From contig CAISYQ010000263.1 in the NCBI GenBank assembly GCA_903889735.1, forward strand, positions 1 through 14,592: a DNA stretch of 14,592 nt. The letters run 5' to 3'. The position numbers and the translations under genes are program-made. The notes beneath the pieces were generated by a model. That model searched no databases. It was not told where the DNA came from and saw nothing but the letters and a program-made list of their open reading frames with translations. Each line of letters opens with the position of its first letter. The first letter of the stretch is position 1. Shown here piece by piece: positions 1 to 12,432 of this stretch. The stretch is from an uncultured Methylibium sp. (GTDB taxonomy: Bacteria > Pseudomonadota > Gammaproteobacteria > Burkholderiales > Burkholderiaceae_C).

Positions 1-1779
1 GCGTTGCTCGACGCTCAACACCTCCGAGAAGCCCGGCATCCCGCCCTCGGGCCGACCATGGCTCAGCCACCAAAAGATGTCGCCGGCCGTGTGCAGGGCG
101 GTGTGGGGTTCGGTCAGGTTGGCGGCCTTGCGGGGCAGGCCTGTGGCGGCCGGGCCGTCGCCTCGGCCACCCTCGCCGTGGCAGCGGGTGCAATGCTGCT
201 GGAAGAGCGCGGCGCCCTGGGCCACCGACACCGCGGTGTAGCCGGTGTCGGTGCGCCGGTAGGTGTCGGGGTAGGCCTCGCCGCTGACCATGGCCAGTCC
301 GGTGACCAGACCCGTCACCGCGACCAGACCCGCCAAGACCATGCGCCGCCGCAGGCCGCTCTCCAGGGCGGGGCTTGGAGCACCCGCCTGCCCCACGGGC
401 GGAGCCGCTTCATACGGCCGCCGCGAGAGGCGCCACAAGGCGTGCAGCAGCACGGCGGTCGCCCCCAGGGCGATCAGCGCGGCCAGCCCGACAGTGACAG
501 CGACCCCTGGCAACTCCCAGCTCGCCGCGAGCGACCACCGAAAGGGCAGCGGCCAGACCCACTGGTCGTGGGCGGCGGGCAGGGTCTCGGTCAAGCGCGC
601 CGCGAGCAGCAGGATGAGCAGCACGAGGCCAAGCTCCACGCCGAGCCAGCGGGTCATCGACCGCCAGGGGCCGGCCTCGGCGGCCGCGGGTGACACGGCA
701 GCCGGCGAGGCCGGCGAAGCGGCGGCCGGCCAGACCGCCGCAGCGGTGAGCAACGGCGTACCGTGAGACTCTGCAGATGAGGGTCTCGCCAGTTCGGCGA
801 CCGCCGAGGCCGTGCCAGCGCCTGGGCCCATGCGCGGCATCCAGACCCAGCGCGCTCGGGCGGCGATCAGGAGCACCGGGATCAAGAGCAGGACCTTGGC
901 CAGCACCAGCTGGCCGTAGTCGCTGCCCAGCAGGGGCGCCACGCTGCGCTCCAGCAGCGTGGTCAGGCCGCCGAGCAGGTCATCGGCCCGGGTGGGCCAG
1001 TCGCGGGGCGCACCCGACTGCAGGTAGGCGGTCACCGTCCCGGTCAGCACCAGCAAGACCACCGATGCGGCGGCCAAGGCCGAGAAGCGGCGCAGCAGGA
1101 CAGCGAGACTTTGGCGGAAGGCCCGCTGCAACGCGAGCGACTCCCCTGGAACGGGATGCCGGGCCAGCCACAGCGCGTACAGCAAGGCCGGCAGGCCGCC
1201 CGCCCAGAACCCCGCGGCCAGGGTGTGCAGCAACTGGCTGAGCCCCGTCAACCACAGCGGCTCGGTCGCCGCGGCATGACCAGCCAGCACGCCGGCGGCG
1301 TTGAAGGTCAGCGCCAGGGCCAGGAGCGGCGCGAGGAGACCGTCATGCCACCCGGAGCCCGGGGGTCGTGGTGGCTGTGCTCCGGTACCCGGTGGTTCTG
1401 ATCCCCGCCGGGCGCCAGGCGGTTTCCGCCCGGTCCTGCCGGCGCCAAGAAGCATCAGCAGCATCGCCAGGGCCAGCGCCTGCCGGCATTGCCAGACCAG
1501 GCCGTAGCGGGTGTCCGCCAGCAGGCGCTCCCACTCGCCCCACTGCAGCAGGGCCTCGGCGCGACCCGTGACCGACACGAGCTGCCAGCCCAGCAGGGCC
1601 GTGTGGGCCAGCAGCACCGCGCCGGTGAGCCAGGGCGCGGCCGCCATCAGCCCGCGCCGCCAGCGGGCCAGGCCCTGCGTTCGCTCGCCACCCGCGAGCG
1701 ACATCAGGGCCAGGCCGCCCAGCAAGACCAGGCCACCGGTCCCCAGCAGCCAACGCAGCGCGGTCGCGAACGCCTCCAT
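1..1779 (-). CDS. copD: CopD-family copper membrane protein fused to a C-terminal class-I cytochrome c domain (3' end beyond left edge of window)
   Basis: Not in the ORF track because there is no stop in the window. Hand translation of the minus strand from ATG 1779..1777 gives 593 stop-free codons down to nt 1. The product reads MEAFATALRWLLGTGGLVLLGGLALMSL...AGVLAGHAAATEPLWLTGLSQLLHTLAAGFWAGGLPALLYALW (CopD-like GHA / HxLAAxxWxGG helices). Further hydrophobic helices follow, then ...YTAVSVAQGAALFQQHCTRCHGEGGRGDGPAATGLPRKAANLTEPH...FWWLSHGRPEGGMPGFSEVLSVEQR. The CxxCH heme motif lies at nt 192..178 and GGMPGF supplies a candidate axial Met. The ATG abuts the copC stop (TGAATG, 1782..1777). 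Confidence 0.8.
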   Translation of the reverse strand, partial: MEAFATALRWLLGTGGLVLLGGLALMSLAGGERTQGLARWRRGLMAAAPWLTGAVLLAHTALLGWQLVSVTGRAEALLQWGEWERLLADTRYGLVWQCRQALALAMLLMLLGAGRTGRKPPGARRGSEPPGTGAQPPRPPGSGWHDGLLAPLLALALTFNAAGVLAGHAAATEPLWLTGLSQLLHTLAAGFWAGGLPALLYALWLARHPVPGESLALQRAFRQSLAVLLRRFSALAAASVVLLVLTGTVTAYLQSGAPRDWPTRADDLLGGLTTLLERSVAPLLGSDYGQLVLAKVLLLIPVLLIAARARWVWMPRMGPGAGTASAVAELARPSSAESHGTPLLTAAAVWPAAASPASPAAVSPAAAEAGPWRSMTRWLGVELGLVLLILLLAARLTETLPAAHDQWVWPLPFRWSLAASWELPGVAVTVGLAALIALGATAVLLHALWRLSRRPYEAAPPVGQAGAPSPALESGLRRRMVLAGLVAVTGLVTGLAMVSGEAYPDTYRRTDTGYTAVSVAQGAALFQQHCTRCHGEGGRGDGPAATGLPRKAANLTEPHTALHTAGDIFWWLSHGRPEGGMPGFSEVLSVEQR

Positions 1780-2298
1780 TCAGGGGCTGGGCGCGGACGC
1801 CTTCAGCGTGAAGCTGTAGCCATGGTCGACGGTGTGCCCATCGACCGACAGCACGCGGTACTTCACCATGTAGACCCCCGGCTCCAGGGCGGGGAGTTCG
1901 AGGACGAGCAGCTTGGGATCCGCCGCGTCCACCTTTGCCGCGCCGATGGCGACCGCCCCCTGGCCCTCGCGGGACAGGCTCACGGAGGCATAGGCCGGCT
2001 CCAGCTTTTCGTTGAACCAGAGCCGCAGGCGCTGCGGCGGCTTGGAGAGCGTGGCGCGCCGTGCCGGCTCGGCCTTGACCAGCGCCGCATGGGCCAGGGC
2101 TGTGCCATGGGCGGACAGCGCCAGGAGGATGGCGAAGCCGGAGGTGATCAGGGTTGAGCGGAGGCCCAAGGGGACAACCAGGCGGGCGCAACAGCGGACA
2201 CCCCAGCGGGCCGCATCGCGGAGGGTCCAGCGGACGGTCCGTTCGGCGATCCAGGGGACCGTCCAGGAGGGGCTCGATCGTGGGGTGAAGGGTGTCAT
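1780..2298 (-). CDS. copC: CopC-domain periplasmic copper-binding protein
   Basis: This is the in-frame part of track ORF 1780..2553. The mature part reads HAALVKAEPARRATLSKPPQRLRLWFNEKLEPAYASVSLSREG...GVYMVKYRVLSVDGHTVDHGYSFTLKA. That matches the CopC signature: N-terminal His after ALA|HA cleavage, LxFxExxE, Y.V.Y.V.S.DGH..G.F.F. ATG 2298..2296 overlaps the esterase stop (ATGA). It would give an unusually long 65-aa presequence. An alternative TTG at 2170..2168 would give a canonical signal peptide, MGLRSTLITSGFAILLALSAHGTALA. Confidence 0.85.
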   Translation of the reverse strand: MTPFTPRSSPSWTVPWIAERTVRWTLRDAARWGVRCCARLVVPLGLRSTLITSGFAILLALSAHGTALAHAALVKAEPARRATLSKPPQRLRLWFNEKLEPAYASVSLSREGQGAVAIGAAKVDAADPKLLVLELPALEPGVYMVKYRVLSVDGHTVDHGYSFTLKASAPSP

Positions 2299-3254
2299 GG
2301 GTCTTTCTGGGGAGATGCCGGAACGTTGGGCGGCGCGATCGGATGCGCGGTACCAGGCCGGTGCCCGGTCAGCAGGAAATCGAGCATCCGCCCCTGCAGG
2401 CCCGGCCATTCGTTGTGGCTGCGACGCCCTTCGCAGTAGAGCACCGGCGCGCCGGGCCGGCAGCCTGCGAAGGCCCTGCAACCGTCGGGGTCGGGGGTGG
2501 CTTCGGTGGCCGTCTGGGGGATCGGCTCGGTGCAGCCGTTGCAGGCCGCCCACCAGTTGGCGGCCTCACGGCCCCAGCCGGGGAAAAGCTGGTCCTGGCT
2601 GCCGTGCATGACCATCACCGGCAGGGGCGCTCGGCAGCCCATTTCCCGCAGGTCCTGGGCGTTGAAGCCGGCGGCGCTGACGGCGATCCCGGCGACGCGC
2701 TCGCGGCTCTCGGGCAGCAGGGCCAGGGCGGTGGAGACCGTGGCGCCATCGGAATGCCCGGTGAAGTAGACCTGCTGGGGGTCGATGCACCAGCGCTCGG
2801 CCACGCTCTGCGCCACGGCGCCCAGGGCAACCACGCTGCGGCGCGACATGGGCCGGTGATCGACATAGGCGACGATGAAACCGCGCCCGGTGGCCTCGGC
2901 CGTGAGTTGGGTGAAGCGCTCGCTGCGCTCGGCGCTGGCGGTGGCAGCGGCATAGACCACCAGCAGCGGATGGGCGACATCGGGGTCGAAATTCGCGGGT
3001 GTGCGCACCTGGTAGGAGAAGCGCGGATCGGTGACCGAGGCCGCGATGCCAGCCGGCGGGATCAGCGCCTGGTCGCAGGCCACTTGGCGCGGCTCGGGAT
3101 ACGCGAAGGTCCTGGCCGGTTCCACCGCGTCCGGGGGGCTGCAGGCGCCCAAAGTGGCAACCGAGAGCAGCATCGGCAGCCGGGAGCGCCACCACCCTCC
3201 CTGGCCCTGCAAGGGCCGATCAGCGCCTGGCTTTTTCCGCAGCGCGGCGGGCAC
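2295..3254 (-). CDS. Secreted lipoprotein esterase, PHB-depolymerase/LpqC-type alpha/beta hydrolase family
   Basis: Lipobox LSVATLGAC is present. The nucleophile elbow is FTGHSDGA (GxSxG). MVMHGSQDQ is a candidate acid block. The C-terminal SHNEWPG matches the GHxWPG His block of this family. Cys pairs (AACNGC, GCRAFAGC) are typical of it. The start is uncertain: GVG 3254 is not meant here, the candidates are GTG 3254 (overlaps the upstream gene by 35 nt), TTG 3212 (gives MQGQGGWWRSRLPMLLSVATLGAC, the best-looking signal peptide) or ATG 3173. Confidence 0.8.
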   Translation of the reverse strand: MPAALRKKPGADRPLQGQGGWWRSRLPMLLSVATLGACSPPDAVEPARTFAYPEPRQVACDQALIPPAGIAASVTDPRFSYQVRTPANFDPDVAHPLLVVYAAATASAERSERFTQLTAEATGRGFIVAYVDHRPMSRRSVVALGAVAQSVAERWCIDPQQVYFTGHSDGATVSTALALLPESRERVAGIAVSAAGFNAQDLREMGCRAPLPVMVMHGSQDQLFPGWGREAANWWAACNGCTEPIPQTATEATPDPDGCRAFAGCRPGAPVLYCEGRRSHNEWPGLQGRMLDFLLTGHRPGTAHPIAPPNVPASPQKDP

Positions 3255-3921
3255 GGCCCGAGGCCCCGTAGAGCAGGAAGCCGGCCACCGGCACCAGGAG
3301 CATCAGCAGGTAGCTGCCATAGGGCGTGCGGGGCTCCCCGACGCTGAACGGGAAGCGCGAAACGTACTGCTGCTTCTCGCCCGCGGACACCAGCCCGACA
3401 TAGCGGCCAGGCTGCAGGAAGTTGTGCTCGAGCGGCACGCTGCCCGCCGGGTAGAGCCTGGGCGGCAGGTGGAGCAAGGTGATGGCGTCGAGCGGTCCGG
3501 CCTCGCCGTCTCCCTTGCCAACCTCATTCCCACCGCCTGATCCGGTATCCCGGATGATCCTGACCTCGACCGGCATGGCGCGCAGCGCCTCATCGACCAT
3601 GTCCATCACCACGACGGTGGGTCCGACCTGGGGAATGTCTTCGCAGAATTCCCGGTTGCCGTTGGCCAGAGGCTGGTAGCCCGCGAAATGCATCGAGTAC
3701 GGGCCAACGGTCAGCTTGCACTGGTCTTCGTCCATGCTGAGACCGCCATGGGCGGCAGCCCCCAGGGGCAGCGCCAAGGCGGCGGTCTGCAGCACCACCC
3801 TGAGAAAGCCAGCGGCTGCGCTGCAGATCCGGTCGCCCAGGCGGTGCCGCGCCGCCTTTCGCACGAGGCTTTCGACCCGCCCTGCCCGGACCCCGCTAGG
3901 CACCGTCGTCATGCGGCTCAA
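3220..3921 (-). CDS. Secreted protein with C-terminal TM anchor, PmoD/AmoD-like by position and architecture (putative copper protein)
   Basis: Signal peptide ...LQTAALALPLGAAA|HGGLSMDEDQCKLTVGPYSMHFAGYQPLANGNREFCEDIP. A ~150-aa soluble domain follows, then one C-terminal TM helix (YGSYLLMLLVPVAGFLLYGA) and a basic tail (RARRAAEKARR). The mature N-terminus is His. Two Cys lie 25 residues apart with Met/His between them. The gene sits immediately after pmoB. The start is TTG 3921 (TTGA overlap with the pmoB stop) or ATG 3912. CDS existence ~0.8; the functional call is much weaker. Confidence 0.45.
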   Translation of the reverse strand: MSRMTTVPSGVRAGRVESLVRKAARHRLGDRICSAAAGFLRVVLQTAALALPLGAAAHGGLSMDEDQCKLTVGPYSMHFAGYQPLANGNREFCEDIPQVGPTVVVMDMVDEALRAMPVEVRIIRDTGSGGGNEVGKGDGEAGPLDAITLLHLPPRLYPAGSVPLEHNFLQPGRYVGLVSAGEKQQYVSRFPFSVGEPRTPYGSYLLMLLVPVAGFLLYGASGRARRAAEKARR

Positions 3922-5183
3922 ACGCCCGGCCCTGTCTTGAAGACCGGCACGATCGGCCCGTAGACCTCGGCGACCTGGCGCTTGCCCTCGGGATCGTAGA
4001 AGAAGATCAGTCCGCCGGTGCGGCTGTCCACGTTCGACAGGAAGCTCACCAGCCGCTCCAGCTCCCAGGCGGCGTCGGTGGCGTCGAGCTTGACGATCCG
4101 TGTCTCGCCCGGCTGCAGCGGCGCGTCAGAGCTCAGCACCAAGCCGCTGGCAGGGACCAGCTCCTTGGGGAAGGTGGGTGATACGGCCGCCATCGCGGCA
4201 TCGACCTTGCGGTTCACGAAGCGCAGGCCGGCGGTCGTGAACTCACCGATCTGCAGCGGTTGGCTCGAACGGTTGGTGAACTCCGCGGTGATCCGCATGC
4301 TGCGGCCCGGTACGTCGTACTCGGCACGCTTGAGCTGGATGTCGACCAGCTTGGGCGACTCGGGCAGCGGTGGCGTGTAGACCGAGCCGGCCTGCAGCGG
4401 CACCAACTGCGGGAAGGCCTGGACGGTCTGGCTGTAGCCGTAGATGACGATGCCCAACACCAACACGAACAGGCCTGCCGCGACCTTGTCGTCGGTGGAC
4501 GTGACCAGCAGGTCCTCGCGCCCCTTCTGCAGGGCAACCCAGCGGGGAATGATCAGCGGCCGCCGCAGCCACCACAGAAGCCAAGCCACGCCGATCAGCC
4601 CATAGCCGAATTGCCATAGCTGCACCCGGGCGACGTTGTAGGTCTGGAGATCGTCGATCACGGTGCCGTGCAGGGTGGTGACCGGTGCCTTGAAGTCGGC
4701 CTCGTCGCCGGCGACCTCGATCCAGCTGCCGGGACCGACGATGGCGCCAGCACCTTGCACGTTGAGCACCGGGTGAAGGTGCCAGCGGCCTGGCATGCGG
4801 CCCTTCATCACGATCTTGAAGTCGTAGTCGCGACCGAGCTCGAGGTCGCGGGCCGATTGCTGGGCCGGCATGTCGTTGATGTAGGACTCCACCCGGGTCA
4901 GCACCGCACCCGGCGAGCCGTTGGACAGGAACACCAGCTTGGGCTTGCTGACGGCATCCGGCCAGTCGCTGAGCAGCCGTAATTTCCCTTTCATGGTGAC
5001 CGTCTGGTTGACGTCGAGCTTGTCGGTCGACCAGCTCATGTCATACCAGTGGACGGTGCGGGTACGGATGTAGGGCTCGGTCGCCCGCTCACCATGGGCC
5101 AGTGCAGGCTCGGGCAGCACGGTGAGCAGCAGCGTCAGGAGGGCCAGCGCCCCCAGCAGGGCTTGGCGGAGGAGGCGGCTCAT
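3918..5183 (-). CDS. pmoB: Copper membrane monooxygenase subunit B (PmoB/AmoB family)
   Basis: Internal start of track ORF 3918..5702 at ATG 5183..5181, in an ATGA overlap with the pmoA stop. The product is MSRLLRQALLGALALLTLLLTVLPEPALA|HGERATEPYIRTRTVHWYDMSW...GRWHLHPVLNVQGAGAIVGPGSWIEVAG. Two central TM helices and a C-terminal cupredoxin-like half follow (EFTTAGLRF...GETRIVKLDATDAAWE...GGLIFFYDPEGKRQV). It aligns collinearly with M. capsulatus PmoB as I recall it. The 173 codons upstream in the track ORF are an out-of-frame overlap with pmoA. Confidence 0.95.
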   Translation of the reverse strand: MSRLLRQALLGALALLTLLLTVLPEPALAHGERATEPYIRTRTVHWYDMSWSTDKLDVNQTVTMKGKLRLLSDWPDAVSKPKLVFLSNGSPGAVLTRVESYINDMPAQQSARDLELGRDYDFKIVMKGRMPGRWHLHPVLNVQGAGAIVGPGSWIEVAGDEADFKAPVTTLHGTVIDDLQTYNVARVQLWQFGYGLIGVAWLLWWLRRPLIIPRWVALQKGREDLLVTSTDDKVAAGLFVLVLGIVIYGYSQTVQAFPQLVPLQAGSVYTPPLPESPKLVDIQLKRAEYDVPGRSMRITAEFTNRSSQPLQIGEFTTAGLRFVNRKVDAAMAAVSPTFPKELVPASGLVLSSDAPLQPGETRIVKLDATDAAWELERLVSFLSNVDSRTGGLIFFYDPEGKRQVAEVYGPIVPVFKTGPGV

Positions 5184-6013
5184 GGGGCCACCTCGGCCTT
5201 CGCGCTGGCTGGGGCATCGGCCTTGGCGCTGCTGCCCCCGAAGATCGCTTTGTAGCGGGCCCCGGCCGGAATGAAGCGGGTGCCGCAGGCCGCGATCGCC
5301 ATCCACCAGAACGCGATGTACACGAAGATGCAGATGAAGGCCGAGAAGAAGGCCGAGACCCAGTTGGCGGAGTCTTGGAAGGTCCGGAGCGTTCCGCGCT
5401 CGATGATGCGGATGTACTCGGGCGTGCCCGAGCGCGGGAAGGTGTAGCCGATCAGGTCGGCCAGCGAGGTCATTTGCCCCATGTGTTCGACCGGCTGGAA
5501 ATAGGGTGCGAGGTAGATCCAGTTGCTGGGAAAGAACATCAGACCGTAGACCACACCCCCGAACACCCCCGTCAGCACCCAGCTGCGGGTGAGACACAGG
5601 ATGGCGTCCAGCGCCAGCGCGCCCATCAGGCAGGTGGAGGGCAGGACCAGGCTGATCGGGAAATGCGCCATGCCCTGCCAGCTGTGGTACCGGACGATCC
5701 ACACACCGACCAGGAACAGCAGCAGGCTGGCGGTGGCGCCGATCGGCAGGCGGAACAGGTGCCAGAACAGCCCCTGGAAGGCTGCCGCCATCATCATGGT
5801 CACGATGGGCGTGATCAACACCCAGTACTGGCGGTCCTTCCAGTCGATGAAGAAGTCCCAGTCACCCGCGAACAGCAGGAAACTGATGTGGGTCACGGCC
5901 CAGACCAGGAAGGCCGCGATCACGATGATCATCAGGTCGAAGGTTCTCGACCACTTCGCCACCTGCGGGGACATCCCGGCAACGTCTAGCACCTTCTGGG
6001 AACTGGAAATCAT
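5180..6013 (-). CDS. pmoA: Copper membrane monooxygenase subunit A (PmoA/AmoA family)
   Basis: AGDWDFFIDWKDRQYWVLITPIV and RSGTPEYIRIIERGTLRTF...VSAFFSAF are hallmark PmoA/AmoA blocks. The protein has about 7 hydrophobic helices. It is 277 aa with an Ala/Lys-rich C-terminal tail (GGSSAKADAPASAKAEVAP). There is no obvious SD before ATG 6013. Confidence 0.95.
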   Translation of the reverse strand: MISSSQKVLDVAGMSPQVAKWSRTFDLMIIVIAAFLVWAVTHISFLLFAGDWDFFIDWKDRQYWVLITPIVTMMMAAAFQGLFWHLFRLPIGATASLLLFLVGVWIVRYHSWQGMAHFPISLVLPSTCLMGALALDAILCLTRSWVLTGVFGGVVYGLMFFPSNWIYLAPYFQPVEHMGQMTSLADLIGYTFPRSGTPEYIRIIERGTLRTFQDSANWVSAFFSAFICIFVYIAFWWMAIAACGTRFIPAGARYKAIFGGSSAKADAPASAKAEVAP

Positions 6014-6046
6014 CGGATGCGCTTCAAAGGATTCTTGTGAAGGGGA

Positions 6047-6838
6047 TCACTCAGCGGCGGCTGGCATGGCGGCATCGACCTGTTTGAACAGCTCGGCCAT
6101 GCGCATCAGCACTTGCAGCAACACGCCGCCCAGCGCCAGACCGGTCCAGCCCAGGATGGGGAAGCCCCAGTGCAGCGGGTGGCTGAAGATCTCCTCGGTC
6201 AACCAGAAGGCGTGGCCCCACTCGTTGTAGCCGAGGTTGGGCAGGATCAGCCCTGGGCCGAGCACGGCCATGATCAGCGGCACCGAGAAGGAGTCGGCAA
6301 AGCGCGGGATGCGCGTCATCGCGTAGAGCATGGTGCTGACCCCGAGCACGATGTAGAGCGGCACGCAGGCATAGAACAGCACGATGTGGCTGGGCGTCAG
6401 TGCCGTGTCGCGGATCACCGTCTGGTGCCAGGTGGCATCACCCTCACCGTAGAAGCTGGCCACCCACAGGAAGGAGAAGGTGTAGACGATGAACCAGGCG
6501 ACCAGGTTGAAGTGCCGACGCAGCTCGGTCTCGGGCGACAGGCGGTCCATGTGCTTGTCCCGGCTCATCCACAGGTAGAGCCACATCACGATGCCGGTGC
6601 CGAAGATCAGCGGCACCTCCAGCTTGAAGAGCGTCACCCAGTGGGTCGCGAATTCCGGCGTGGTGGAGTCCAGGCCGTACTTGAAGGCGAAGGCCTGCTG
6701 GTAGAAGCGCAGCCCCACATAGATGGCCATCAGCACGCCCCAACCGATCGCCACCGGGGCGACGTTGAACATCTTGCGTTCCTTGGGGGCGACCGCTGCG
6801 CGGGGCAGCAGGTTTGGGGAAGCCGCTTGGGTCAGCAT
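6047..6838 (-). CDS. pmoC: Copper membrane monooxygenase subunit C (PmoC/AmoC family)
   Basis: FYGEGDATWHQTVIRDTALTPSHIVLFY and LPNLGYNEWGHAFWLTEEIFSHPLHWGF are hallmark PmoC blocks. I chose ATG 6838..6836 (M29 of track ORF 6047..6922). It is preceded by the SD AGGAGA (revcomp of 6845..6850) at 6-nt spacing. The upstream 28 codons look non-coding. Confidence 0.95.
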   Translation of the reverse strand: MLTQAASPNLLPRAAVAPKERKMFNVAPVAIGWGVLMAIYVGLRFYQQAFAFKYGLDSTTPEFATHWVTLFKLEVPLIFGTGIVMWLYLWMSRDKHMDRLSPETELRRHFNLVAWFIVYTFSFLWVASFYGEGDATWHQTVIRDTALTPSHIVLFYACVPLYIVLGVSTMLYAMTRIPRFADSFSVPLIMAVLGPGLILPNLGYNEWGHAFWLTEEIFSHPLHWGFPILGWTGLALGGVLLQVLMRMAELFKQVDAAMPAAAE

Positions 6839-7100
6839 GGTCGTTCTCCTGAGTGACGATGAGGAACAGATCGGGGTCGTGGGGGGATCGTCAGCACAGG
6901 CGATGACGACTCCCAAAACCAATGCCCTTCAACAACGACCGCCAACAAGGGCGAGGCGTTGCCAAGGCGATCCACAGTGTTGCACAGCAACCGCACCCGG
7001 AGAACGGGTATTCACCCCCATAGATGCCGACCGAGGGTGGGCACCCTCCCCTACCCGCCGCCTGAAGACGGGGTTCCGCACACCCGCTGTCAGGCGGGTG
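6839..7100 (-). promoter_or_regulatory. pmoC promoter plus structured 5' leader (exact promoter not identified)
   Basis: 262-nt non-coding gap, less GC-rich than the flanks, ending in a strong SD. Several short inverted repeats are present. TGACGAT (6854..6860), ATCGTCA (6887..6893) and TGACGA (6904..6909) could form alternative hairpins. Others are GTTGC-ACA-GCAAC (6979..6991), ACCCG-GAGAA-CGGGT (6995..7009) and GAGGGT-GGGC-ACCCTC (7033..7048). I found no convincing -35/-10 pair by eye. Confidence 0.4.
7081..7100 (-). terminator. Stem-loop directly after the thioesterase-GNAT stop; weak candidate terminator or insulator
   Basis: CACCCGC-tgtcag-GCGGGTG forms a 7-bp GC-rich stem with a 6-nt loop. 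It abuts the stop codon at 7103..7101. No U-tract follows on the minus strand (…GCGGGUG UGCGGAACCCC), so it is not a canonical intrinsic terminator. Confidence 0.25.
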
Positions 7101-7964
7101 TCAAAGCGTCTGCGCCATGGCCTGGTGCGGCAGACCGGCCTCCTGGAACGCCGCCCCGATCGCTGCAAAGCCGTGCCGGGCGTAGAAGCCCACGGCCGAG
7201 GCCTGGGCGTGGAGCACCACCTCGCGGTCCTCACGAGCGCGGGCGGCGGTCAGCAAGGCGTCGAGCACCGCCCTGCCCGCCCCGGCGCCACGCAGCAGGG
7301 AGCAGGTCGCCATGCGGCCGACCTTGGAGACCCCAGACCTGACCGCCACCAGCCTCCCGCAGGCCAGAGGCAGGCCCAGGCGGTTGAAGGCCACGGCATG
7401 CACCGCTCCGGCGTCGGCATCGTCCGTGAGCAGGTCGGCGGCGATGCCCTGCTCCACCACGAACACCTCCTGCCGGATCGCAGTCGATGCGCCGGCCCAC
7501 TCGGACCAAGCCCCGACGCTCACCTCGAGCATGGGCTCGCCCGCCTCGAAGCCCAGGAGCAGTGCGCGCAGCCCGGCAGGCACAGGCTGGGGCGTCTGGG
7601 CCGTGGCGTCGGCGAATACGTAGACCAACTCGCCACTGACCAGCAGACGCTCCTGCCGGAAGACGGCGCCGCGCAGGAGGATGGAGCTGTTGCCGATCCG
7701 CTCGCAGCGCACGCCGATCTCCAACGTCTCGTCGAAGCGCGCCGAGGCGTGGTACTCGAGCGTGGCCTTGCGCACGAAGAGGTCGCCGCCGAAATGCTGC
7801 AGCGTGGCCTCATAGGGCAGCGCCATCGCCCGCCACCAGCCCGCCACGGCGGTGTCCAGGTACATCAGGTAATGACCGTTGAAGACGATGCGCTGCAGGT
7901 CAACCTCGGCCCAGCGCACACGCAGCCTCTCGAGGTGGCGGAAATGGCCTCGCTCCAGATCCAT
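7101..7964 (-). CDS. Fusion protein: N-terminal YbgC/4HBT-type hotdog acyl-CoA thioesterase plus C-terminal GNAT N-acetyltransferase
   Basis: ATG 7964..7962 is preceded by AAGGAGG (revcomp of 7972..7978) at 7-nt spacing. The track ORF extends to 8078 but that part looks non-coding. The N-terminal half reads LRVRWAEVDLQRIVFNGHYLMYLDTAVAGWW...IGNSSILL (4HBT/YbgC pattern with the Asp). The C-terminal half reads IRQEVFVVEQG...AVHAVAF...GRLV...KVGRMATCSLLRGAGAGRAVLDALL...LHAQASAVGFYARHGF (GNAT motif A, R/Q-x-x-G-x-G/A). Confidence 0.85.
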   Translation of the reverse strand: MDLERGHFRHLERLRVRWAEVDLQRIVFNGHYLMYLDTAVAGWWRAMALPYEATLQHFGGDLFVRKATLEYHASARFDETLEIGVRCERIGNSSILLRGAVFRQERLLVSGELVYVFADATAQTPQPVPAGLRALLLGFEAGEPMLEVSVGAWSEWAGASTAIRQEVFVVEQGIAADLLTDDADAGAVHAVAFNRLGLPLACGRLVAVRSGVSKVGRMATCSLLRGAGAGRAVLDALLTAARAREDREVVLHAQASAVGFYARHGFAAIGAAFQEAGLPHQAMAQTL

Positions 7965-8076: not shown

Positions 8077-9213
8077 ATGCCGCAGATTTTCTACATTACC
8101 CAGATCCAGTTCGATTTCGGCGCGGTCCGCGAGCTGGCGGCCGAGTGCGCGCGCGTCGGCATCCACCGCCCGCTTGTCATCACCGACGCCGGCGTGCGGG
8201 CCGCGGGCGTGCTGCAGCCGGCGCTCAAAGCCCTGCGCGAACTGCCGGTGGCGGTGTTTGACGGTACGCCCTCCAACCCCACCGAGGCGGCCGTGCGCGC
8301 TGCCCGGGCGGTCTGGGACGCCCACCGCGCCGACGGCCTGGTGGCGGTGGGTGGCGGCTCCAGCATCGATCTCGCCAAGGCCCTGGCGATCCATGCCACC
8401 CACCCCGGGCCGCTCAAGACCTACGCCACCATCGAGGGCGGCTCCACCCTCATCACCGCGGCGGTCGCCCCGCTGATCGCCGTGCCCACCACCGCCGGGA
8501 CCGGCAGCGAGGTGGCGCGCGGCGCCATCCTCATCGTCGATGACGGCCGCAAGCTGGGATTCCACAGCTGGCACCTGGTGCCGCGCGCGGCCATCTGCGA
8601 TCCAGAACTCACGCTCGGCCTGCCCGCCGGCCTGACGGCGGCCACTGGCATGGATGCGGTGGCCCACTGCATGGAGACCTTTCTCTCGGCCGCCTTCAAC
8701 CCGCCCGCCGACGGCATCGCACTCGATGGCCTGGCCCGAGCCTGGACACACATCGAGCGCGCCACCCGCGACGGCAGCGACCGCGAGGCGCGTCGCCAGA
8801 TGATGAGCGCCTCCATGCAGGGCGCGATGGCCTTCCAGAAAGGCCTGGGCTGCGTGCACAGCCTCAGCCACAGCCTGGGCGGCGTGAACCCGCGCCTGCA
8901 CCACGGCACGCTCAACGCGATGTTCCTGCCGGCGGTGCTGCGTTTCAACGCGCAGGCCGAGAGCGTGCGGGCCGAGAAACGCCTGGAACGCATGGCGCAG
9001 GCCATGGGCCTGGCCTCGGCCGGCGATGTGGCCGTCGCGGTGGCCGACATGAACGCACGCCTGGGCCTGCCCACGGGCTTGGCCGCCCTGGGGGTGGCAC
9101 AGAACGCTTTCGACCACATCGTCGCAGGCGCACTGGCCGATCACTGCCACAAGACCAATCCGCGTGTCGCGGGTGCCGACGACTACCGACAGATGCTGAC
9201 CGAGGCGCTATGA
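8077..9213 (+). CDS. Iron-containing (family III) NAD(P)-dependent alcohol dehydrogenase, 4-hydroxybutyrate-dehydrogenase-like
   Basis: M67 of track ORF 7879..9213. The product starts MPQIFYITQIQFDFGAVRELAAEC. Other blocks are FDGTPSNPTE, VAVGGGSSIDLAKA (GGGSxxDxAK), PLIAVPTTAGTGSEV, and the metal His blocks MDAVAHCMETF and CVHSLSHSLGG...LHHG. The whole length resembles the Cupriavidus Gbd-type enzyme as I recall it. Confidence 0.9.
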   Translation: MPQIFYITQIQFDFGAVRELAAECARVGIHRPLVITDAGVRAAGVLQPALKALRELPVAVFDGTPSNPTEAAVRAARAVWDAHRADGLVAVGGGSSIDLAKALAIHATHPGPLKTYATIEGGSTLITAAVAPLIAVPTTAGTGSEVARGAILIVDDGRKLGFHSWHLVPRAAICDPELTLGLPAGLTAATGMDAVAHCMETFLSAAFNPPADGIALDGLARAWTHIERATRDGSDREARRQMMSASMQGAMAFQKGLGCVHSLSHSLGGVNPRLHHGTLNAMFLPAVLRFNAQAESVRAEKRLERMAQAMGLASAGDVAVAVADMNARLGLPTGLAALGVAQNAFDHIVAGALADHCHKTNPRVAGADDYRQMLTEAL

Positions 9214-9297: not shown

Positions 9298-10092
9298 ATG
9301 GCCTTCACTCATCTCGCATCCAGATCGGTCCGGACCGCGCTTGTGGCGCTTGCCGGCCTCCTGTCGGTTGCGGCGGCCTCGGCCCAGGAAAACAGCCTGC
9401 TGATCTACTGCGGCATCACCATGGTGAGGCCGATCACCGAGCTGGCGCGCAGTTTCGAGCAGCAGGAAAAGATCAAGATCGACATCTCCCAGGGGGGCTC
9501 CGAAGACCTCTACCGGAGCGTGCGCAAGAGCCGCACGGGCGACCTCTACCTCCCCGGGGAGCCCTCCTACCGCAGCAAGTACCTTGCCGAGGGCCTGCTG
9601 GGCGACGTCAAGGTGGTCGGCTACAACCAGATGGCGATCTTCGTGCCCAAGGGCAACCCGAAGAAGGTGCAGCCCGACCTGAAGGAACTGCTGCGCAAGG
9701 ACCTGGTCCTGACGATCGGCAATGCCGAGAGCGGCAGCGTTGGCCAGGAATCCAAGGCCATACTCGACCGCGCCAACCTGTATCCCAAGGTCGTCTCGCA
9801 GGCCGCCTTCCTGATGCCCGATTCGAGGGCCATCAACCTCGCCCTCAAGCGCGGCGATGCGGATGCGGCGTTGAACTGGCGCGCCACCGCCTTTTTCCCT
9901 GACAACGCCCCCCAGATCGATGTGGTGGATCTCGATCCCCGCATCGCCAAGCCGCAGGCGCTGCTGCTCAACCTGCTCACTTTCTCTCGCAACCCCACAC
10001 TGGCCGCCAAGTTCATGGCCTATGCCGCCTCCGGCGAGGGCCAGGCGGTGTTCCGCAAGTACGGCTTCCTGGACAACAGCCAGGTCCGCTGA
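9298..10092 (+). CDS. Periplasmic type-II substrate-binding protein, ModA/oxyanion-binding-like fold (probable sensor co-receptor)
   Basis: SD AAGGA (9286..9290). Signal peptide MAFTHLASRSVRTALVALAGLLSVAAASA|QE. The pattern LLIYCGITMVRPITELARSFEQQEKIKIDISQGGSEDLYRSV...GDLYLPG resembles ModA-type binding proteins (ModA has AAASL...SFGSSG...DVFISA). However, the canonical anion-binding Ser positions are changed. No ABC permease or ATPase gene follows; a sensor kinase does. Confidence 0.8.
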   Translation: MAFTHLASRSVRTALVALAGLLSVAAASAQENSLLIYCGITMVRPITELARSFEQQEKIKIDISQGGSEDLYRSVRKSRTGDLYLPGEPSYRSKYLAEGLLGDVKVVGYNQMAIFVPKGNPKKVQPDLKELLRKDLVLTIGNAESGSVGQESKAILDRANLYPKVVSQAAFLMPDSRAINLALKRGDADAALNWRATAFFPDNAPQIDVVDLDPRIAKPQALLLNLLTFSRNPTLAAKFMAYAASGEGQAVFRKYGFLDNSQVR

Positions 10093-10107
10093 CCCGCGGT
10101 CGACGCC

Positions 10108-12420: not shown

Positions 12421-12432
12421 AGCCTCACCCCC

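What the first reader, a model, noticed from the sequence alone, without database searches (positions are those of the whole stretch)
3918..6838. Orphan-clade copper membrane monooxygenase (pmoCAB-type) with intact copper sites, in a context resembling neither a methanotroph nor a nitrifier
Three adjacent minus-strand genes are clear PmoC/PmoA/PmoB homologues in C-A-B order. In PmoB, the N-terminal His exposed by signal cleavage (ALA|HGE, H30) and the WHLH pair (H135/H137) are present. In PmoC, D134/H138/H151 and N205/H209/H223 are present. These six sit at a constant offset of 22 from the CuC (D156/H160/H173) and CuD (N227/H231/H245) ligands of Methylococcus capsulatus PmoC as I remember them. 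The enzyme therefore looks catalytically competent. Blocks that are near-invariant in pMMO and AMO are nevertheless altered. PmoA has FPISLV and FPSNWI where I recall YPINFV and YPGNWP, and GVW where I recall GEW. PmoA also carries an extra Ala/Lys-rich C-terminal tail. No methanol-dehydrogenase or hydroxylamine-oxidoreductase gene is in the window. The nearest redox gene is a cytoplasmic Fe-type alcohol dehydrogenase. CuMMOs outside methanotrophs and nitrifiers have been reported: actinobacterial hydrocarbon monooxygenases, some gammaproteobacterial ethane/ethylene oxidisers, and some alkane-utilising Betaproteobacteria. Substrates are established for very few of them. The substrate here is unknown.
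Basis: partly seen in the sequence, partly recalled or inferred. Interest (0 to 1): 0.85.

Follow-up and report, generated by a model that had tools for sequence, protein, structure and literature searches.

The report
Uncharacterised-clade copper membrane monooxygenase operon
This is an intact copper membrane monooxygenase operon (relatives of methane and ammonia monooxygenase) from a widespread but functionally untested proteobacterial clade that most likely oxidises small hydrocarbons, so it is a new member of a recognised group, not a new kind of enzyme.

Summary
Three minus-strand genes (6838-3918) encode XmoC, XmoA and XmoB with Pfam E-values of 1e-77 to 1e-137. The operon is longer than reported: it continues with a PmoD homologue, a lipoprotein esterase, CopC and a CopD-cytochrome c fusion.

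The enzyme lies outside the pMMO, AMO, Pxm and Hmo references I had (PmoA 36-47% identical). Emo-type sequences could not be included. It sits with 99-100% bootstrap in a clade of 25 genome species, including Solimonas aquatica, Extensimonas soli, Bradyrhizobium, a Rhodoferax-labelled genome and Nevskiaceae MAGs. So it is not an orphan. The literature already lists CuMMOs of Solimonas and Rhodoferax as "unknown function".

The neighbouring Fe-alcohol dehydrogenase is a 4-hydroxybutyrate dehydrogenase. It is next to the cluster in no fetched relative.

In clade relatives the cluster sits beside genes for:
- aldehyde dehydrogenase;
- acyl-CoA ligase, CoA-transferase and beta-oxidation-type enzymes;
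- MimR/AcoR-like regulators;
- TodX/FadL channels.

This favours hydrocarbon hydroxylation feeding an alcohol-aldehyde-acyl-CoA route. The substrate remains unproven.

Verdict: a new member of a known, uncharacterised kind, of moderate interest.

The parts
6047..6838 (-). xmoC (263 aa), the CuMMO C subunit that carries the CuC site (D134, H138, H151) and the CuD site (N205, H209, H223)
   Evidence: Pfam AmoC E 3e-85. NCBIfam AmoC_BACT 328 bits against a cut-off of 319. Ungapped alignment to PDB PmoC/AmoC chains. Ligands invariant in 77 sequences, and the clade-specific residues T214 and H220 lie in the CuD loop. AGGAG ribosome-binding site before the ATG at 6838.
5180..6013 (-). xmoA (277 aa), the CuMMO A subunit
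   Evidence: Pfam AMO E 1.2e-77. NCBIfam AmoA_BACT 273.7 bits, below the 290 cut-off. Best database relative is 92% identical and best genome relative 78%. Identity to pMMO, AMO, Pxm and Hmo references is 36-47%.
3918..5183 (-). xmoB (421 aa), the CuMMO B subunit, with a signal peptide cleaved at ALA|HGE and CuB ligands H30, H135 and H137
   Evidence: Pfam Monooxygenase_B E 1e-137. Alignment to mature PDB PmoB and AmoB chains. Ligand conservation across the clade.
3220..3912 (-). xmoD, a PmoD/AmoD-family periplasmic cupredoxin-like protein with a signal peptide and a C-terminal membrane helix. The alternative TTG start at 3921 overlaps the xmoB stop codon.
   Evidence: phmmer E 7e-19 to PmoD of Methylocystis sp. 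Rockwell, PDB 6CPD. No Pfam or NCBIfam model matches. Both conserved Cys (C65, C90) and the His (H75) are present, with Met at C+9 instead of C+8. A homologue follows xmoB in 20 of 20 clade loci that have at least 3 kb downstream.
2295..3176 (-). Probable lipoprotein alpha/beta-hydrolase (carboxylesterase of the PHB-depolymerase / feruloyl-esterase type) with a GHSDG nucleophile elbow
   Evidence: Weak Pfam and NCBIfam esterase hits. AlphaFold2 model with mean pLDDT 87.8. Best PDB fold matches are a feruloyl esterase, an acetyl xylan esterase and a PHB depolymerase. G140, S142, G144, D195 and H254 are invariant, and a Cys follows the signal sequence in at least 90% of homologues. A homologue lies next to xmoCAB in 13 of 20 clade loci and 30 of 41 loci of other uncharacterised lineages, and in Azoarcus sp. 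DD4.
1780..2298 (-). copC, a periplasmic copper-binding protein. The mature N-terminus is His after ALA|HAALV. The start codon is uncertain (2298 or further downstream).
   Evidence: Pfam CopC E 2.8e-20. NCBIfam copper_CopC at 78 bits, below its cut-off. Translation.
1..1779 (-). copD fused to a C-terminal cytochrome c domain (CTRCH haem motif). The 3' end runs off the window.
   Evidence: Pfam CopD E 3e-11 and Cytochrom_C E 5.5e-9. Translation. The same CopD-cytochrome c fusion follows the cluster in Azoarcus sp. DD4 and in 38 of 41 loci of other lineages.
6839..7100 (-). 262-bp region upstream of xmoC, presumed to hold the promoter or operator
   Evidence: Sequence read. No sigma-70 consensus match and no convincing sigma-54 match. 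The function is inferred from position only.
7101..7964 (-). YbgC/FadM-type acyl-CoA thioesterase fused to a GNAT acetyltransferase, upstream on the same strand. Linkage to the operon is uncertain.
   Evidence: Pfam 4HBT and Acetyltransf_10, NCBIfam TIGR00051 at 79 bits against a 68.7 cut-off. The same fusion lies upstream of xmoC on the contig of the 92%-identical relative. It is absent from all 28 other clade loci. A 30%-identical thioesterase lies upstream of xmoC in L052 and L058.

Best explanation
The window carries a complete, apparently functional operon: xmoC-xmoA-xmoB-xmoD-esterase-copC-copD/cytochrome c. It encodes a copper membrane monooxygenase of the proteobacterial clade typified by Solimonas aquatica, a Rhodoferax-labelled genome, Bradyrhizobium SZCCT strains and Nevskiaceae MAGs.

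Shown here: all three subunits are intact, the CuB ligands in XmoB and the CuC/CuD ligands in XmoC are conserved, and a copper-handling set (PmoD homologue, CopC, CopD-cytochrome c) is encoded in the same direction.

Inferred, by analogy with pMMO, AMO and Hmo: the XmoCAB complex sits in the inner membrane, CopCD and XmoD supply or service its copper, and it uses O2 plus quinol-derived electrons to hydroxylate a small hydrophobic substrate at the CuC/CuD site of XmoC.

Inferred from gene neighbourhoods of clade relatives: the physiological substrate is a hydrocarbon, most likely a short-chain alkane, possibly a somewhat larger alkyl or cyclic compound. Its alcohol product would be carried through aldehyde and acid to an acyl-CoA. 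Methane or ammonia is unlikely to be the growth substrate.

The host is a roughly 70% G+C bacterium, probably a Methylibium-like member of Burkholderiales.
For: Identity and integrity:
- Pfam, NCBIfam and PDB matches to all three subunits.
- GC3 coding signal in these frames.
- Copper ligands present and invariant across relatives.

Clade placement:
- Neighbour-joining (NJ) trees with 100 bootstraps put the window in a 24-member XmoB clade (99%) and a 26-member XmoA clade (100%). Neither contains a pMMO, AMO, Pxm or Hmo reference.

Extended operon:
- PmoD homology, E 7e-19.
- CopC and CopD-cytochrome c.
- The layout is conserved across 81 related loci.

Hydrocarbon or acyl-CoA context in clade relatives:
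- aldehyde dehydrogenase in 8 loci;
- AMP-forming acyl-CoA ligase in 9;
- family III CoA-transferase in 10;
- acyl-CoA dehydrogenase, enoyl-CoA hydratase and MmgE/PrpD in 6;
- acetyl-CoA hydrolase/transferase in 4;
- a divergent GAF/HTH_8 activator in 4, with a MimR_N domain in L083 and a sigma-54 interaction domain in Solimonas.
- A TodX/FadL hydrophobic-compound channel lies directly upstream of xmoC in L002 and L008, and in Azoarcus sp. DD4, a propanotroph (PMC6696649).

Absence of nitrifier markers nearby:
- No ORF with three or more CxxCH motifs occurs within 10 kb of any of the first 82 fetched loci (L001-L082; 80 CuMMO loci from the genome scan plus the Pxm and Hmo reference loci), so no hao or cycAB is adjacent.

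Host:
- The flanking gbd gene is 84-86% identical to Methylibium MAG proteins.

From my own knowledge, since the paper is not held: Rochman et al. 2020 (ISME J 14:714) linked Rhodoferax and Polaromonas xmoCABD clusters to growth on ethane and propane and to propane-induced xmoA transcription.
Against: - No member of this exact clade has a demonstrated substrate.
- I could not confirm that the sequences of Rochman et al. belong to this clade and not to one of the two sister betaproteobacterial lineages.
- The window itself has none of the aldehyde dehydrogenase or acyl-CoA genes seen in relatives. Its flanks are a thioesterase-GNAT fusion, gbd, a solute-binding protein and two hybrid histidine kinases.
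- No alcohol dehydrogenase is conserved next to the cluster.
- The NCBIfam AMO models for the C and B subunits pass their cut-offs.
- The best NCBIfam matches of the linked catabolic genes in L083 (StyD-like, cyclohexanecarboxylate-CoA-ligase-like) are below cut-off. They hint at bulkier substrates than C2-C4 alkanes.
- The role of the conserved periplasmic esterase is unexplained by a simple alkane pathway.
- The trees are NJ trees, not ML trees, and they lack Emo-type references.
Confidence: 0.6

Rival explanations
1. The enzyme acts on an oxygenated or larger substrate instead of a gaseous alkane. Candidates are acetone or another small ketone (as shown for verrucomicrobial PMO3), a cyclic ether or ester whose lactone or ester intermediate the conserved periplasmic esterase opens, or an aryl- or cycloalkyl compound.
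For: - A carboxylesterase gene is retained next to xmoCAB at varying positions in 13 of 20 clade loci and 30 of 41 loci of other lineages. Its fold matches feruloyl esterases, acetyl xylan esterases and PHB depolymerases.
- A MimR_N/GAF/HTH_8 regulator lies divergently upstream in L083, L084 and L085.
- In this window a 4-hydroxybutyrate dehydrogenase gene lies 1.2 kb upstream. It would fit a lactone to 4-hydroxybutyrate route.
- L083 carries StyD-like, cyclohexanecarboxylate-CoA-ligase-like and butyryl-CoA:acetate CoA-transferase-like genes.
- TodX/FadL channels lie upstream of xmoC.
- PMO3 oxidises acetone (PMC8630023).
Against: - gbd is next to the cluster in none of the 81 related loci.
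- Esterase homologues also occur in Nitrospira MAGs between phospholipid-synthesis genes, far from any amo genes. The esterase may therefore have a general role unrelated to the substrate.
- All NCBIfam assignments of the linked catabolic genes are below cut-off.
- There is no direct biochemical evidence.
Confidence: 0.2
2. It is an ammonia monooxygenase used for heterotrophic or cryptic nitrification.
For: - NCBIfam AmoC_BACT (328 bits, cut-off 319) and AmoB_BACT (537 bits, cut-off 336) pass their cut-offs.
- XmoA has a C-terminal extension that partly aligns with betaproteobacterial AmoA.
- The amoCAB(E)D-copCD layout of ammonia oxidisers (PMC6189053) resembles the layout here.
- CuMMOs are promiscuous and usually co-oxidise ammonia.
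Against: - AmoA_BACT is below its cut-off (273.7 bits against 290).
- The same NCBIfam names are applied to the Pxm genes of a methanotroph plasmid, so these models are not specific.
- XmoA is only 39% identical to N. briensis AmoA, and the AMO reference falls outside the clade.
- No multi-haem ORF lies near any of the first 82 fetched loci (L001-L082).
- The clade hosts are heterotrophs (Bradyrhizobium, Solimonas, Extensimonas), from my own knowledge.
Confidence: 0.08
3. It is a divergent particulate methane monooxygenase supporting methanotrophy, for example on trace methane.
For: - All pMMO copper ligands are conserved.
- The best single PDB hits for XmoB and XmoA are pMMO chains.
Against: - XmoA is 45-47% identical to pMMO PmoA, and the references fall outside the clade.
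- TIGR03078 and TIGR03080 are below cut-off.
- PmoA E100 ('GEW') and PmoC M236 are replaced throughout the clade.
- The linked genes point to C2-and-longer acyl-CoA metabolism.
- From my own knowledge, Rochman et al. 2020 found no methane assimilation by carriers of related betaproteobacterial clusters.
Confidence: 0.05
4. The operon is a horizontally acquired relic that is not expressed or is no longer functional in this host.
For: - G+C content of the xmo region (63-66%) is below that of the flanks (70-74%).
- The clade is scattered over Alpha-, Beta- and Gammaproteobacteria.
- A transposase ends the cluster in L083.
- No promoter was recognised upstream of xmoC.
Against: - All seven genes are intact, with a strong GC3 signal.
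- The ligands are invariant.
- The cluster architecture is maintained across 81 loci.
Confidence: 0.04

Closest known systems
xmoCAB(D) clusters of unknown function in Solimonas aquatica DSM 25927, and the betaproteobacterial (Rhodoferax, Polaromonas) CuMMOs (Khadka et al. 2018, PMC6215863; Rochman et al. 2020, ISME J 14:714; listed in PMC8630023)
   Same: - Same clade as Solimonas aquatica and a Rhodoferax-labelled genome (NJ bootstrap 99-100%).
- Same C-A-B-D gene order and same PmoA length class of about 270 aa.
- Same PmoA and PmoC signature residues.
- Non-methanotroph, non-nitrifier hosts.
   Different: - Only 64% (Solimonas) and 71% (Rhodoferax OTU1) XmoA identity.
- A different host, probably Methylibium-like.
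- This contig lacks the aldehyde dehydrogenase and acyl-CoA genes found beside many clade members.
- Whether the ethane/propane-linked sequences of Rochman et al. are in this clade or a sister lineage could not be checked.
Particulate methane monooxygenase (pMMO) of Methylococcus capsulatus Bath, Methylotuvimicrobium alcaliphilum 20Z, Methylocystis and Methylosinus (PDB 3RGB, 7S4H, 6CXH, 4PHZ, 3CHX)
   Same: - Three-subunit architecture.
- CuB, CuC and CuD ligands, and R143 (Bath R165).
- A PmoD gene after the operon.
   Different: - 45-47% PmoA identity, and outside the pMMO clade.
- PmoA E100 is replaced by Val.
- PmoC M236 is replaced by Thr and A242 by His.
- PmoA is 30 residues longer.
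Bacterial ammonia monooxygenase (Nitrosomonas europaea 9CL6, Nitrosospira briensis 9PXF)
   Same: - amoCAB followed by D-type and copCD genes.
- Long AmoA C-terminus.
- 'AFW' and 'FS' residues in the CuD loop.
- The NCBIfam AmoB and AmoC models pass their cut-offs.
   Different: - 39% AmoA identity, and the AMO reference lies outside the clade.
- AmoA_BACT is below its cut-off.
- No hao or cycAB lies nearby.
- The esterase gene is not a described part of amo clusters (my own knowledge).
Actinobacterial hydrocarbon/butane monooxygenase HmoCAB (Mycolicibacterium chubuense NBB4 plasmid pMYCCH.01)
   Same: - A CuMMO in a non-methanotroph, oxidising C2-C4 alkanes.
- An AMP-binding ligase gene lies downstream.
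   Different: - Only 31-36% identical, and used as the outgroup.
- No PmoD, esterase or copCD beside it.
CuMMO cluster of Azoarcus sp. DD4, a propanotroph (CP022958; PMC6696649)
   Same: The accessory layout is the same: xmoCAB, PmoD-like gene, esterase, copC, copD-cytochrome c.
   Different: - It belongs to a different CuMMO lineage. DD4 XmoA is 80% identical to the XmoA of L067, which is itself 42% identical to the window's XmoA.
- It has a TodX/FadL gene upstream.
- Its role in DD4 is untested.

Membership tests
Copper membrane monooxygenase (CuMMO; AMO/pMMO superfamily) | Three subunits matching Pfam AmoC (PF04896), AMO (PF02461) and Monooxygenase_B (PF04744), encoded together | tested here: met
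   E-values of 3e-85, 1.2e-77 and 1e-137, with full-length matches and adjacent genes in C-A-B order.
Copper membrane monooxygenase (CuMMO; AMO/pMMO superfamily) | Copper ligands: CuB (N-terminal His plus HxH in the B subunit), CuC (D, H, H) and CuD (N, H, H) in the C subunit | tested here: met
   XmoB H30, H135 and H137. XmoC D134, H138, H151, N205, H209 and H223. All align to the PDB ligands and are invariant in the relatives.
Copper membrane monooxygenase (CuMMO; AMO/pMMO superfamily) | Copper-dependent monooxygenase activity | not testable with these tools
   This needs expression or whole-cell assays with acetylene or allylthiourea inhibition.
Solimonas/Rhodoferax/Bradyrhizobium/Nevskiaceae xmoCABD clade (uncharacterised proteobacterial CuMMO) | Monophyly with these sequences for XmoA and XmoB | tested here: met
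   NJ trees with 100 bootstraps give 100% for XmoA (26 sequences) and 99% for XmoB (24 sequences). XmoA identity within the clade is 54-78%, against 36-51% to everything else.
Solimonas/Rhodoferax/Bradyrhizobium/Nevskiaceae xmoCABD clade (uncharacterised proteobacterial CuMMO) | A PmoD-family gene directly after xmoB | tested here: met
   Window 3220-3912. A homologue is present in 20 of 20 clade loci with enough downstream sequence.
Particulate methane monooxygenase (methanotroph pMMO) | Nesting inside a pMMO clade, or passing the TIGR03078 and TIGR03080 equivalog cut-offs | tested here: not met
   The pMMO references fall outside the clade. TIGR03078 scores 270 against 280.6, and TIGR03080 scores 249 against 318. 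Only the B-subunit model TIGR03079 passes, at 441 against 395.
Particulate methane monooxygenase (methanotroph pMMO) | Host genome with methanol dehydrogenase and C1 assimilation | not testable with these tools
   Only a 14.6-kb contig exists for this organism, and it contains none of these genes.
Bacterial ammonia monooxygenase | NCBIfam equivalog models AmoA_BACT, AmoB_BACT and AmoC_BACT all above cut-off | tested here: inconclusive
   AmoC scores 328 against 319 (pass), AmoB 537 against 336 (pass) and AmoA 273.7 against 290 (fail). The same product names are given to the Pxm genes of Methylomagnum, so the models are not function-specific.
Bacterial ammonia monooxygenase | Nesting with AOB or comammox AMO, and hao-cycAB in the genome | tested here: not met
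   The AMO references (9LEG, 9PXF) fall outside the clade, and XmoA identity is 39%. No multi-haem ORF lies within 10 kb of any of the first 82 fetched loci (L001-L082). Genome-wide absence could not be tested.
Pxm (pxmABC) | A-B-C gene order and grouping with Pxm | tested here: not met
   The gene order here is C-A-B. XmoA identity to Methylomagnum PxmA is 43.5%, and Pxm lies outside the clade.
Actinobacterial Hmo/Bmo | Grouping with the M. chubuense NBB4 HmoCAB | tested here: not met
   31-36% identity, and Hmo is the most distant reference, used as the outgroup.
Emo-type gammaproteobacterial ethane/ethylene CuMMO (Haliea, Cycloclasticus symbionts) | Grouping with Emo reference sequences | not tested
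   No Emo reference sequence could be obtained with the available tools.
PmoD/AmoD family (CuA-forming subgroup) | Signal peptide, periplasmic domain with two invariant Cys, C-terminal membrane helix, and homology to PmoD | tested here: met
   E 7e-19 to 6CPD. C65 and C90 align with C41 and C65 of PmoD. A hydrophobic C-terminal segment is present (features as defined in PMC6189053).
PmoD/AmoD family (CuA-forming subgroup) | Cx7MxHxnC motif, which is required for the CuA site (PMC6189053) | tested here: not met
   The window has C65-x8-M74-H75: Ser at position C+8, Met at C+9 and His at C+10. Several clade homologues have Met at both C+8 and C+9 and so do fit the motif.

The most novel reading that the evidence does not exclude
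The esterase-linked xmoCABD clusters may be CuMMOs specialised for a substrate class not yet known for this enzyme family. Candidates are cyclic ethers, esters, lactone-forming compounds or bulkier alkyl or cycloalkyl hydrocarbons. In this reading the conserved periplasmic carboxylesterase is an obligatory second step, and the clade-invariant extra His in the CuD loop (XmoC H220, 'SHPLH') together with T214 reshapes the active site. In this window the adjacent 4-hydroxybutyrate dehydrogenase would then complete a lactone to 4-hydroxybutyrate to succinate route.
Probability: 0.12. Interest if true: 0.75.

Novelty: new member of a known kind. Interest (0 to 1): 0.4.

Why it matters
CuMMOs drive methane and ammonia oxidation, and substrates are known for only a few of their lineages. 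This window adds a well-preserved member of a large lineage whose function has never been tested. That lineage occurs in Burkholderiales, Nevskiales and Bradyrhizobium.

The comparative analysis yields three points that experiments could use:
- The conserved unit is xmoCABD plus a secreted esterase plus copCD-cytochrome c. It is not xmoCAB alone.
- Clade-specific substitutions sit in the CuD loop, which current structural work implicates in substrate selection.
- In relatives the cluster is wired to aldehyde and acyl-CoA metabolism and to hydrophobic-compound uptake.

If the substrate were established, pmoA/amoA-based surveys that now label these genes "methane/ammonia monooxygenase" could be re-read. 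Cultured clade members (Solimonas aquatica, Extensimonas soli, Bradyrhizobium SZCCT strains) offer an immediate experimental route.

Tried and rejected
1. Exact look-up of the window's XmoA, XmoB and gbd products to recover the source sample returned nothing. Only cluster membership showed that the window is a whole 14,592-bp contig.
2. Rochman et al. 2020 is not held under either its PMC id or its DOI. The alkane link rests on my memory of that paper and on how others cite it.
3. Promoter search upstream of xmoC found no sigma-70 consensus. It also found no convincing or conserved sigma-54 -24/-12 element in the window or in 30 relatives.
4. I considered the Fe-ADH as the alcohol-oxidising partner and rejected it. 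It scores as the 4-hydroxybutyrate dehydrogenase equivalog and is never syntenic with the cluster.
5. I considered the solute-binding protein plus two hybrid histidine kinases as regulators of xmo and rejected them. They are not conserved beside any related cluster.
6. I tested whether the esterase is a universal CuMMO accessory by checking its Nitrospira homologues. Those sit among phospholipid-synthesis genes, not amo genes, so the idea is neither supported nor excluded.
7. The plasmid collection gave only Pxm and actinobacterial Hmo references. No AOB or Emo sequences could be added beyond the PDB chains.
8. ML phylogeny was not possible because no ML program is installed. I used neighbour-joining with a Kimura correction and 100 bootstraps instead.

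Full report
**Observation.** The window is about 70% G+C and shows a strong third-codon-position GC (GC3) signal that fixes the coding frames. Three contiguous minus-strand genes encode the CuMMO subunits:
- xmoC, 6047-6838, 263 aa, with an AGGAG ribosome-binding site;
- xmoA, 5180-6013, 277 aa;
- xmoB, 3918-5183, 421 aa, overlapping xmoA by ATGA.

They match Pfam AmoC (3e-85), AMO (1.2e-77) and Monooxygenase_B (1e-137) end to end.

XmoB H30 is residue 1 of the mature chain, and H135/H137 align with the HxH pair of CuB. XmoC residues 31-248 align without gaps to residues 53-270 of M. capsulatus PmoC, an offset of 22. D134/H138/H151 and N205/H209/H223 are invariant in 77 aligned sequences. The divergent XmoA blocks (FPISLV, FPSNWI, GVW) are real.

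The operon continues downstream on the same strand.
- *ORF 3220-3912.* It has no Pfam or NCBIfam match, but it hits PmoD of Methylocystis sp. Rockwell (PDB 6CPD) at E 7e-19. It has the PmoD architecture of signal peptide, periplasmic domain with two conserved Cys, and C-terminal helix (PMC6189053). Its motif is C-x8-M-H, not the CuA-forming C-x7-M-x-H.
- *ORF 2295-3176.* This is a probable lipoprotein alpha/beta-hydrolase with a GHSDG nucleophile elbow. Its AlphaFold2 model has mean pLDDT 87.8. The best PDB fold matches are a feruloyl esterase, an acetyl xylan esterase and a PHB depolymerase.
- *CopC, 1780-2298,* followed by *a CopD-cytochrome c fusion* that runs off the window at position 1.

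**Relatives and phylogeny.** XmoA has about 65 database clusters at 56-92% identity, then a drop to about 50%. A scan of one genome per species found 25 loci at 54-78% XmoA identity. They are labelled as follows:
- a Sterolibacterium MAG;
- 'Rhodoferax ferrireducens OTU1';
- Acidovorax and Vitreoscilla MAGs;
- Extensimonas soli H3M7-6;
- Bradyrhizobium SZCCT0138 and SZCCT0118;
- Nevskia, Panacagrimonas and Polycyclovorans MAGs;
- Solimonas aquatica DSM 25927.

I built neighbour-joining (NJ) trees with 100 bootstraps. The references were pMMO (Bath, 20Z), AMO (PDB 9LEG, and 9PXF from N. briensis), Methylomagnum Pxm and M. chubuense Hmo. The window falls in a clade with 99% (XmoB) and 100% (XmoA) support that holds no characterised enzyme. 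XmoA identity to the references is 47% (20Z), 45% (Bath), 39% (AMO), 44% (Pxm) and 36% (Hmo).

NCBIfam is ambiguous. AmoC_BACT and AmoB_BACT pass their cut-offs and AmoA_BACT fails. The same names are attached to the Pxm genes of a methanotroph plasmid.

The clade is known. Khadka et al. 2018 and Awala et al. 2021 list Solimonas aquatica, Rhodoferax and Polaromonas CuMMOs as of unknown function. A 2026 survey found more than 100 groundwater MAGs with pmoCAB operons, including in Burkholderiales and Nevskiales.

**Conserved context.** Searching the window's proteins against all fetched loci with tblastn shows how far the layout xmoCAB, xmoD, (esterase), copC, copD extends. It holds within the clade and also in several other uncharacterised lineages.

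| Gene next to xmoCAB | Clade loci with at least 3 kb downstream | Other uncharacterised lineages |
|---|---|---|
| xmoD | 20/20 | 39/41 |
| esterase | 13/20 | 30/41 |
| copC | 8/20 | 35/41 |
| copD | 8/20 | 38/41 |
| Fe-ADH | 0 | 0 |
| solute-binding protein | 0 | 0 |

Cultured Azoarcus sp. DD4, a propanotroph, has the same accessory layout.

The Fe-ADH, the solute-binding protein and the histidine kinases are never syntenic with the cluster. The Fe-ADH is a 4-hydroxybutyrate dehydrogenase (656 bits against a 500 cut-off). Its closest named relatives are Methylibium MAG proteins at 84-86% identity. This suggests a Methylibium-like Burkholderiales host. Only the 92%-identical relative shares the upstream thioesterase-GNAT gene.

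**Functional inference.** Clustering of the neighbouring ORFs in clade loci, followed by Pfam and NCBIfam scans, gave these recurrent families:
- aldehyde dehydrogenase, 8 loci;
- AMP-forming acyl-CoA ligase, 9 loci;
- family III CoA-transferase, 10 loci;
- acyl-CoA dehydrogenase, enoyl-CoA hydratase and MmgE/PrpD, 6 loci, all Nevskiaceae;
- acetyl-CoA hydrolase/transferase, 4 loci;
- TetR regulators, 7 loci;
- divergent GAF/HTH_8 activators, 4 loci, with a MimR_N domain in L083 and a sigma-54 interaction domain in Solimonas.

TodX/FadL channels lie immediately upstream of xmoC in L002, L008 and Azoarcus sp. DD4. No ORF with three or more haem motifs lies near any of the first 82 fetched loci, L001-L082.

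These associations favour hydroxylation of a hydrophobic hydrocarbon, with the product processed as alcohol, aldehyde, acid and then acyl-CoA. They agree with what I recall of Rochman et al. 2020, namely ethane and propane use and propane-induced xmoA in Rhodoferax and Polaromonas. That paper could not be read here, and I could not place its sequences in my trees.

The window itself carries none of these catabolic genes, so for this organism the inference is by homology only.

**Active-site features.** The ligands are unchanged, but the clade carries fixed substitutions around the sites.
- In XmoC: T214 (Bath M236) and H220 (Bath A242, giving 'SHPLH') in all 23 clade sequences; L147 (Bath F169) in 18 of 23; position 213 (Bath F235) variable, as M, L or F.
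- In XmoA: V or T at the Glu of 'GEW', S121 and L122 in place of N and F, and S163 in place of G.

A recent review points to the loop between the CuD histidines as a likely determinant of substrate specificity (PMC13058606). Whether H220 contacts copper cannot be decided without model coordinates.

**Unexplained.** The periplasmic esterase is retained next to xmoCAB at varying positions, which argues for functional linkage. A simple n-alkane pathway does not need it. Its Nitrospira homologues sit between CDP-alcohol phosphatidyltransferase and PlsY genes. That hints at a lipid-directed role. An ester or lactone step in the pathway is the alternative.

**Verdict.** The window holds a real, intact CuMMO operon. 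It is a new member of a recognised but biochemically untested clade. The 'orphan' label, the weight placed on the Fe-ADH and the interest score need correction.

Noticed in passing
window 2295-3176 (-); also L001-L079 and L089:10001-10951: A secreted carboxylesterase, probably a lipoprotein, of the PHB-depolymerase / feruloyl-esterase fold is kept next to xmoCAB at varying positions. It lies between xmoB and xmoD, after xmoD, after copD, or upstream. It occurs in 13 of 20 clade loci and 30 of 41 loci of other uncharacterised CuMMO lineages, and in Azoarcus sp. DD4. In Nitrospira MAGs its homologue lies between phospholipid-synthesis genes instead.
   Followed up: partly
window 6047-6838 (-), XmoC residues 214 and 220: The CuD loop has clade-invariant substitutions: T214 (Met in pMMO and AMO) and an extra His, H220, three residues before the ligand H223 ('SHPLH'). 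H220 is also present in 31 of 50 sequences from other uncharacterised lineages. It is absent from the pMMO, AMO, Pxm and Hmo references.
   Followed up: partly
window 3220-3912 (-): The PmoD homologue has C-x8-M-H in place of the CuA-forming C-x7-M-x-H motif. Across about 70 homologues next to uncharacterised CuMMOs, the block D-x-C-[KV]-L-x(2)-G-x(3)-M-H-F-x-G-Y-Q...E-F-C-E-D-I-P is almost invariant. No Pfam or NCBIfam model recognises this protein.
   Followed up: partly
window 1-1779 (-): CopD is fused to a C-terminal c-type cytochrome domain (CTRCH). The same fusion follows CuMMO clusters in most related loci. In Azoarcus sp. DD4 it carries an additional weak AhpC-TSA hit.
   Followed up: partly
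window 7101-7964 (-) and 8077-9213 (+): A YbgC/FadM thioesterase-GNAT fusion lies upstream of xmoC. It is diverged from a 4-hydroxybutyrate dehydrogenase gene (gbd) with essentially no spacer if the longest ORFs are used. The thioesterase-GNAT gene is also upstream of xmoC in the 92%-identical relative. A 30%-identical thioesterase precedes xmoC in L052 and L058, which belong to another lineage.
   Followed up: partly
window 9298-14592 (+): A ModA-like periplasmic binding protein (SBP_bac_11) is followed by two tandem hybrid histidine kinase/response-regulator genes (10108-12420, and 12433 to beyond the window end). The second has three receiver domains. They are not syntenic with any related CuMMO cluster.
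   Followed up: no
window 3500-7000 compared with the flanks: The xmo region has lower G+C (63-66%) than the flanks (70-74%). The clade mixes Alpha-, Beta- and Gammaproteobacteria, with Bradyrhizobium SZCCT sequences nested among betaproteobacterial ones. L083 ends with a DDE transposase. All this is consistent with horizontal transfer of the cluster.
   Followed up: partly
L002:~520-1970, L008:~2590-3950, L089:4712-6175: A TodX/FadL-family outer-membrane channel for hydrophobic compounds is encoded directly upstream of xmoC in two clade members and in Azoarcus sp. DD4. None is present in the window.
   Followed up: partly
L023:15035-15700 and homologues in L002, L008, L018, L024, L025: A small secreted protein with a His-rich stretch (HEHHHHHD), and no Pfam match, recurs after copCD in six clade loci. 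It may be a further copper-binding accessory protein.
   Followed up: no
record titles of L003, L009, L013, L036, L052, L065, L073: Several CuMMO-bearing MAG contigs carry implausible organism labels: Bifidobacteriaceae, Bordetella parapertussis, Buchnera, Klebsiella pneumoniae. These look like mis-assigned names in the public records, so taxon labels of MAG loci should be treated with caution.
   Followed up: no
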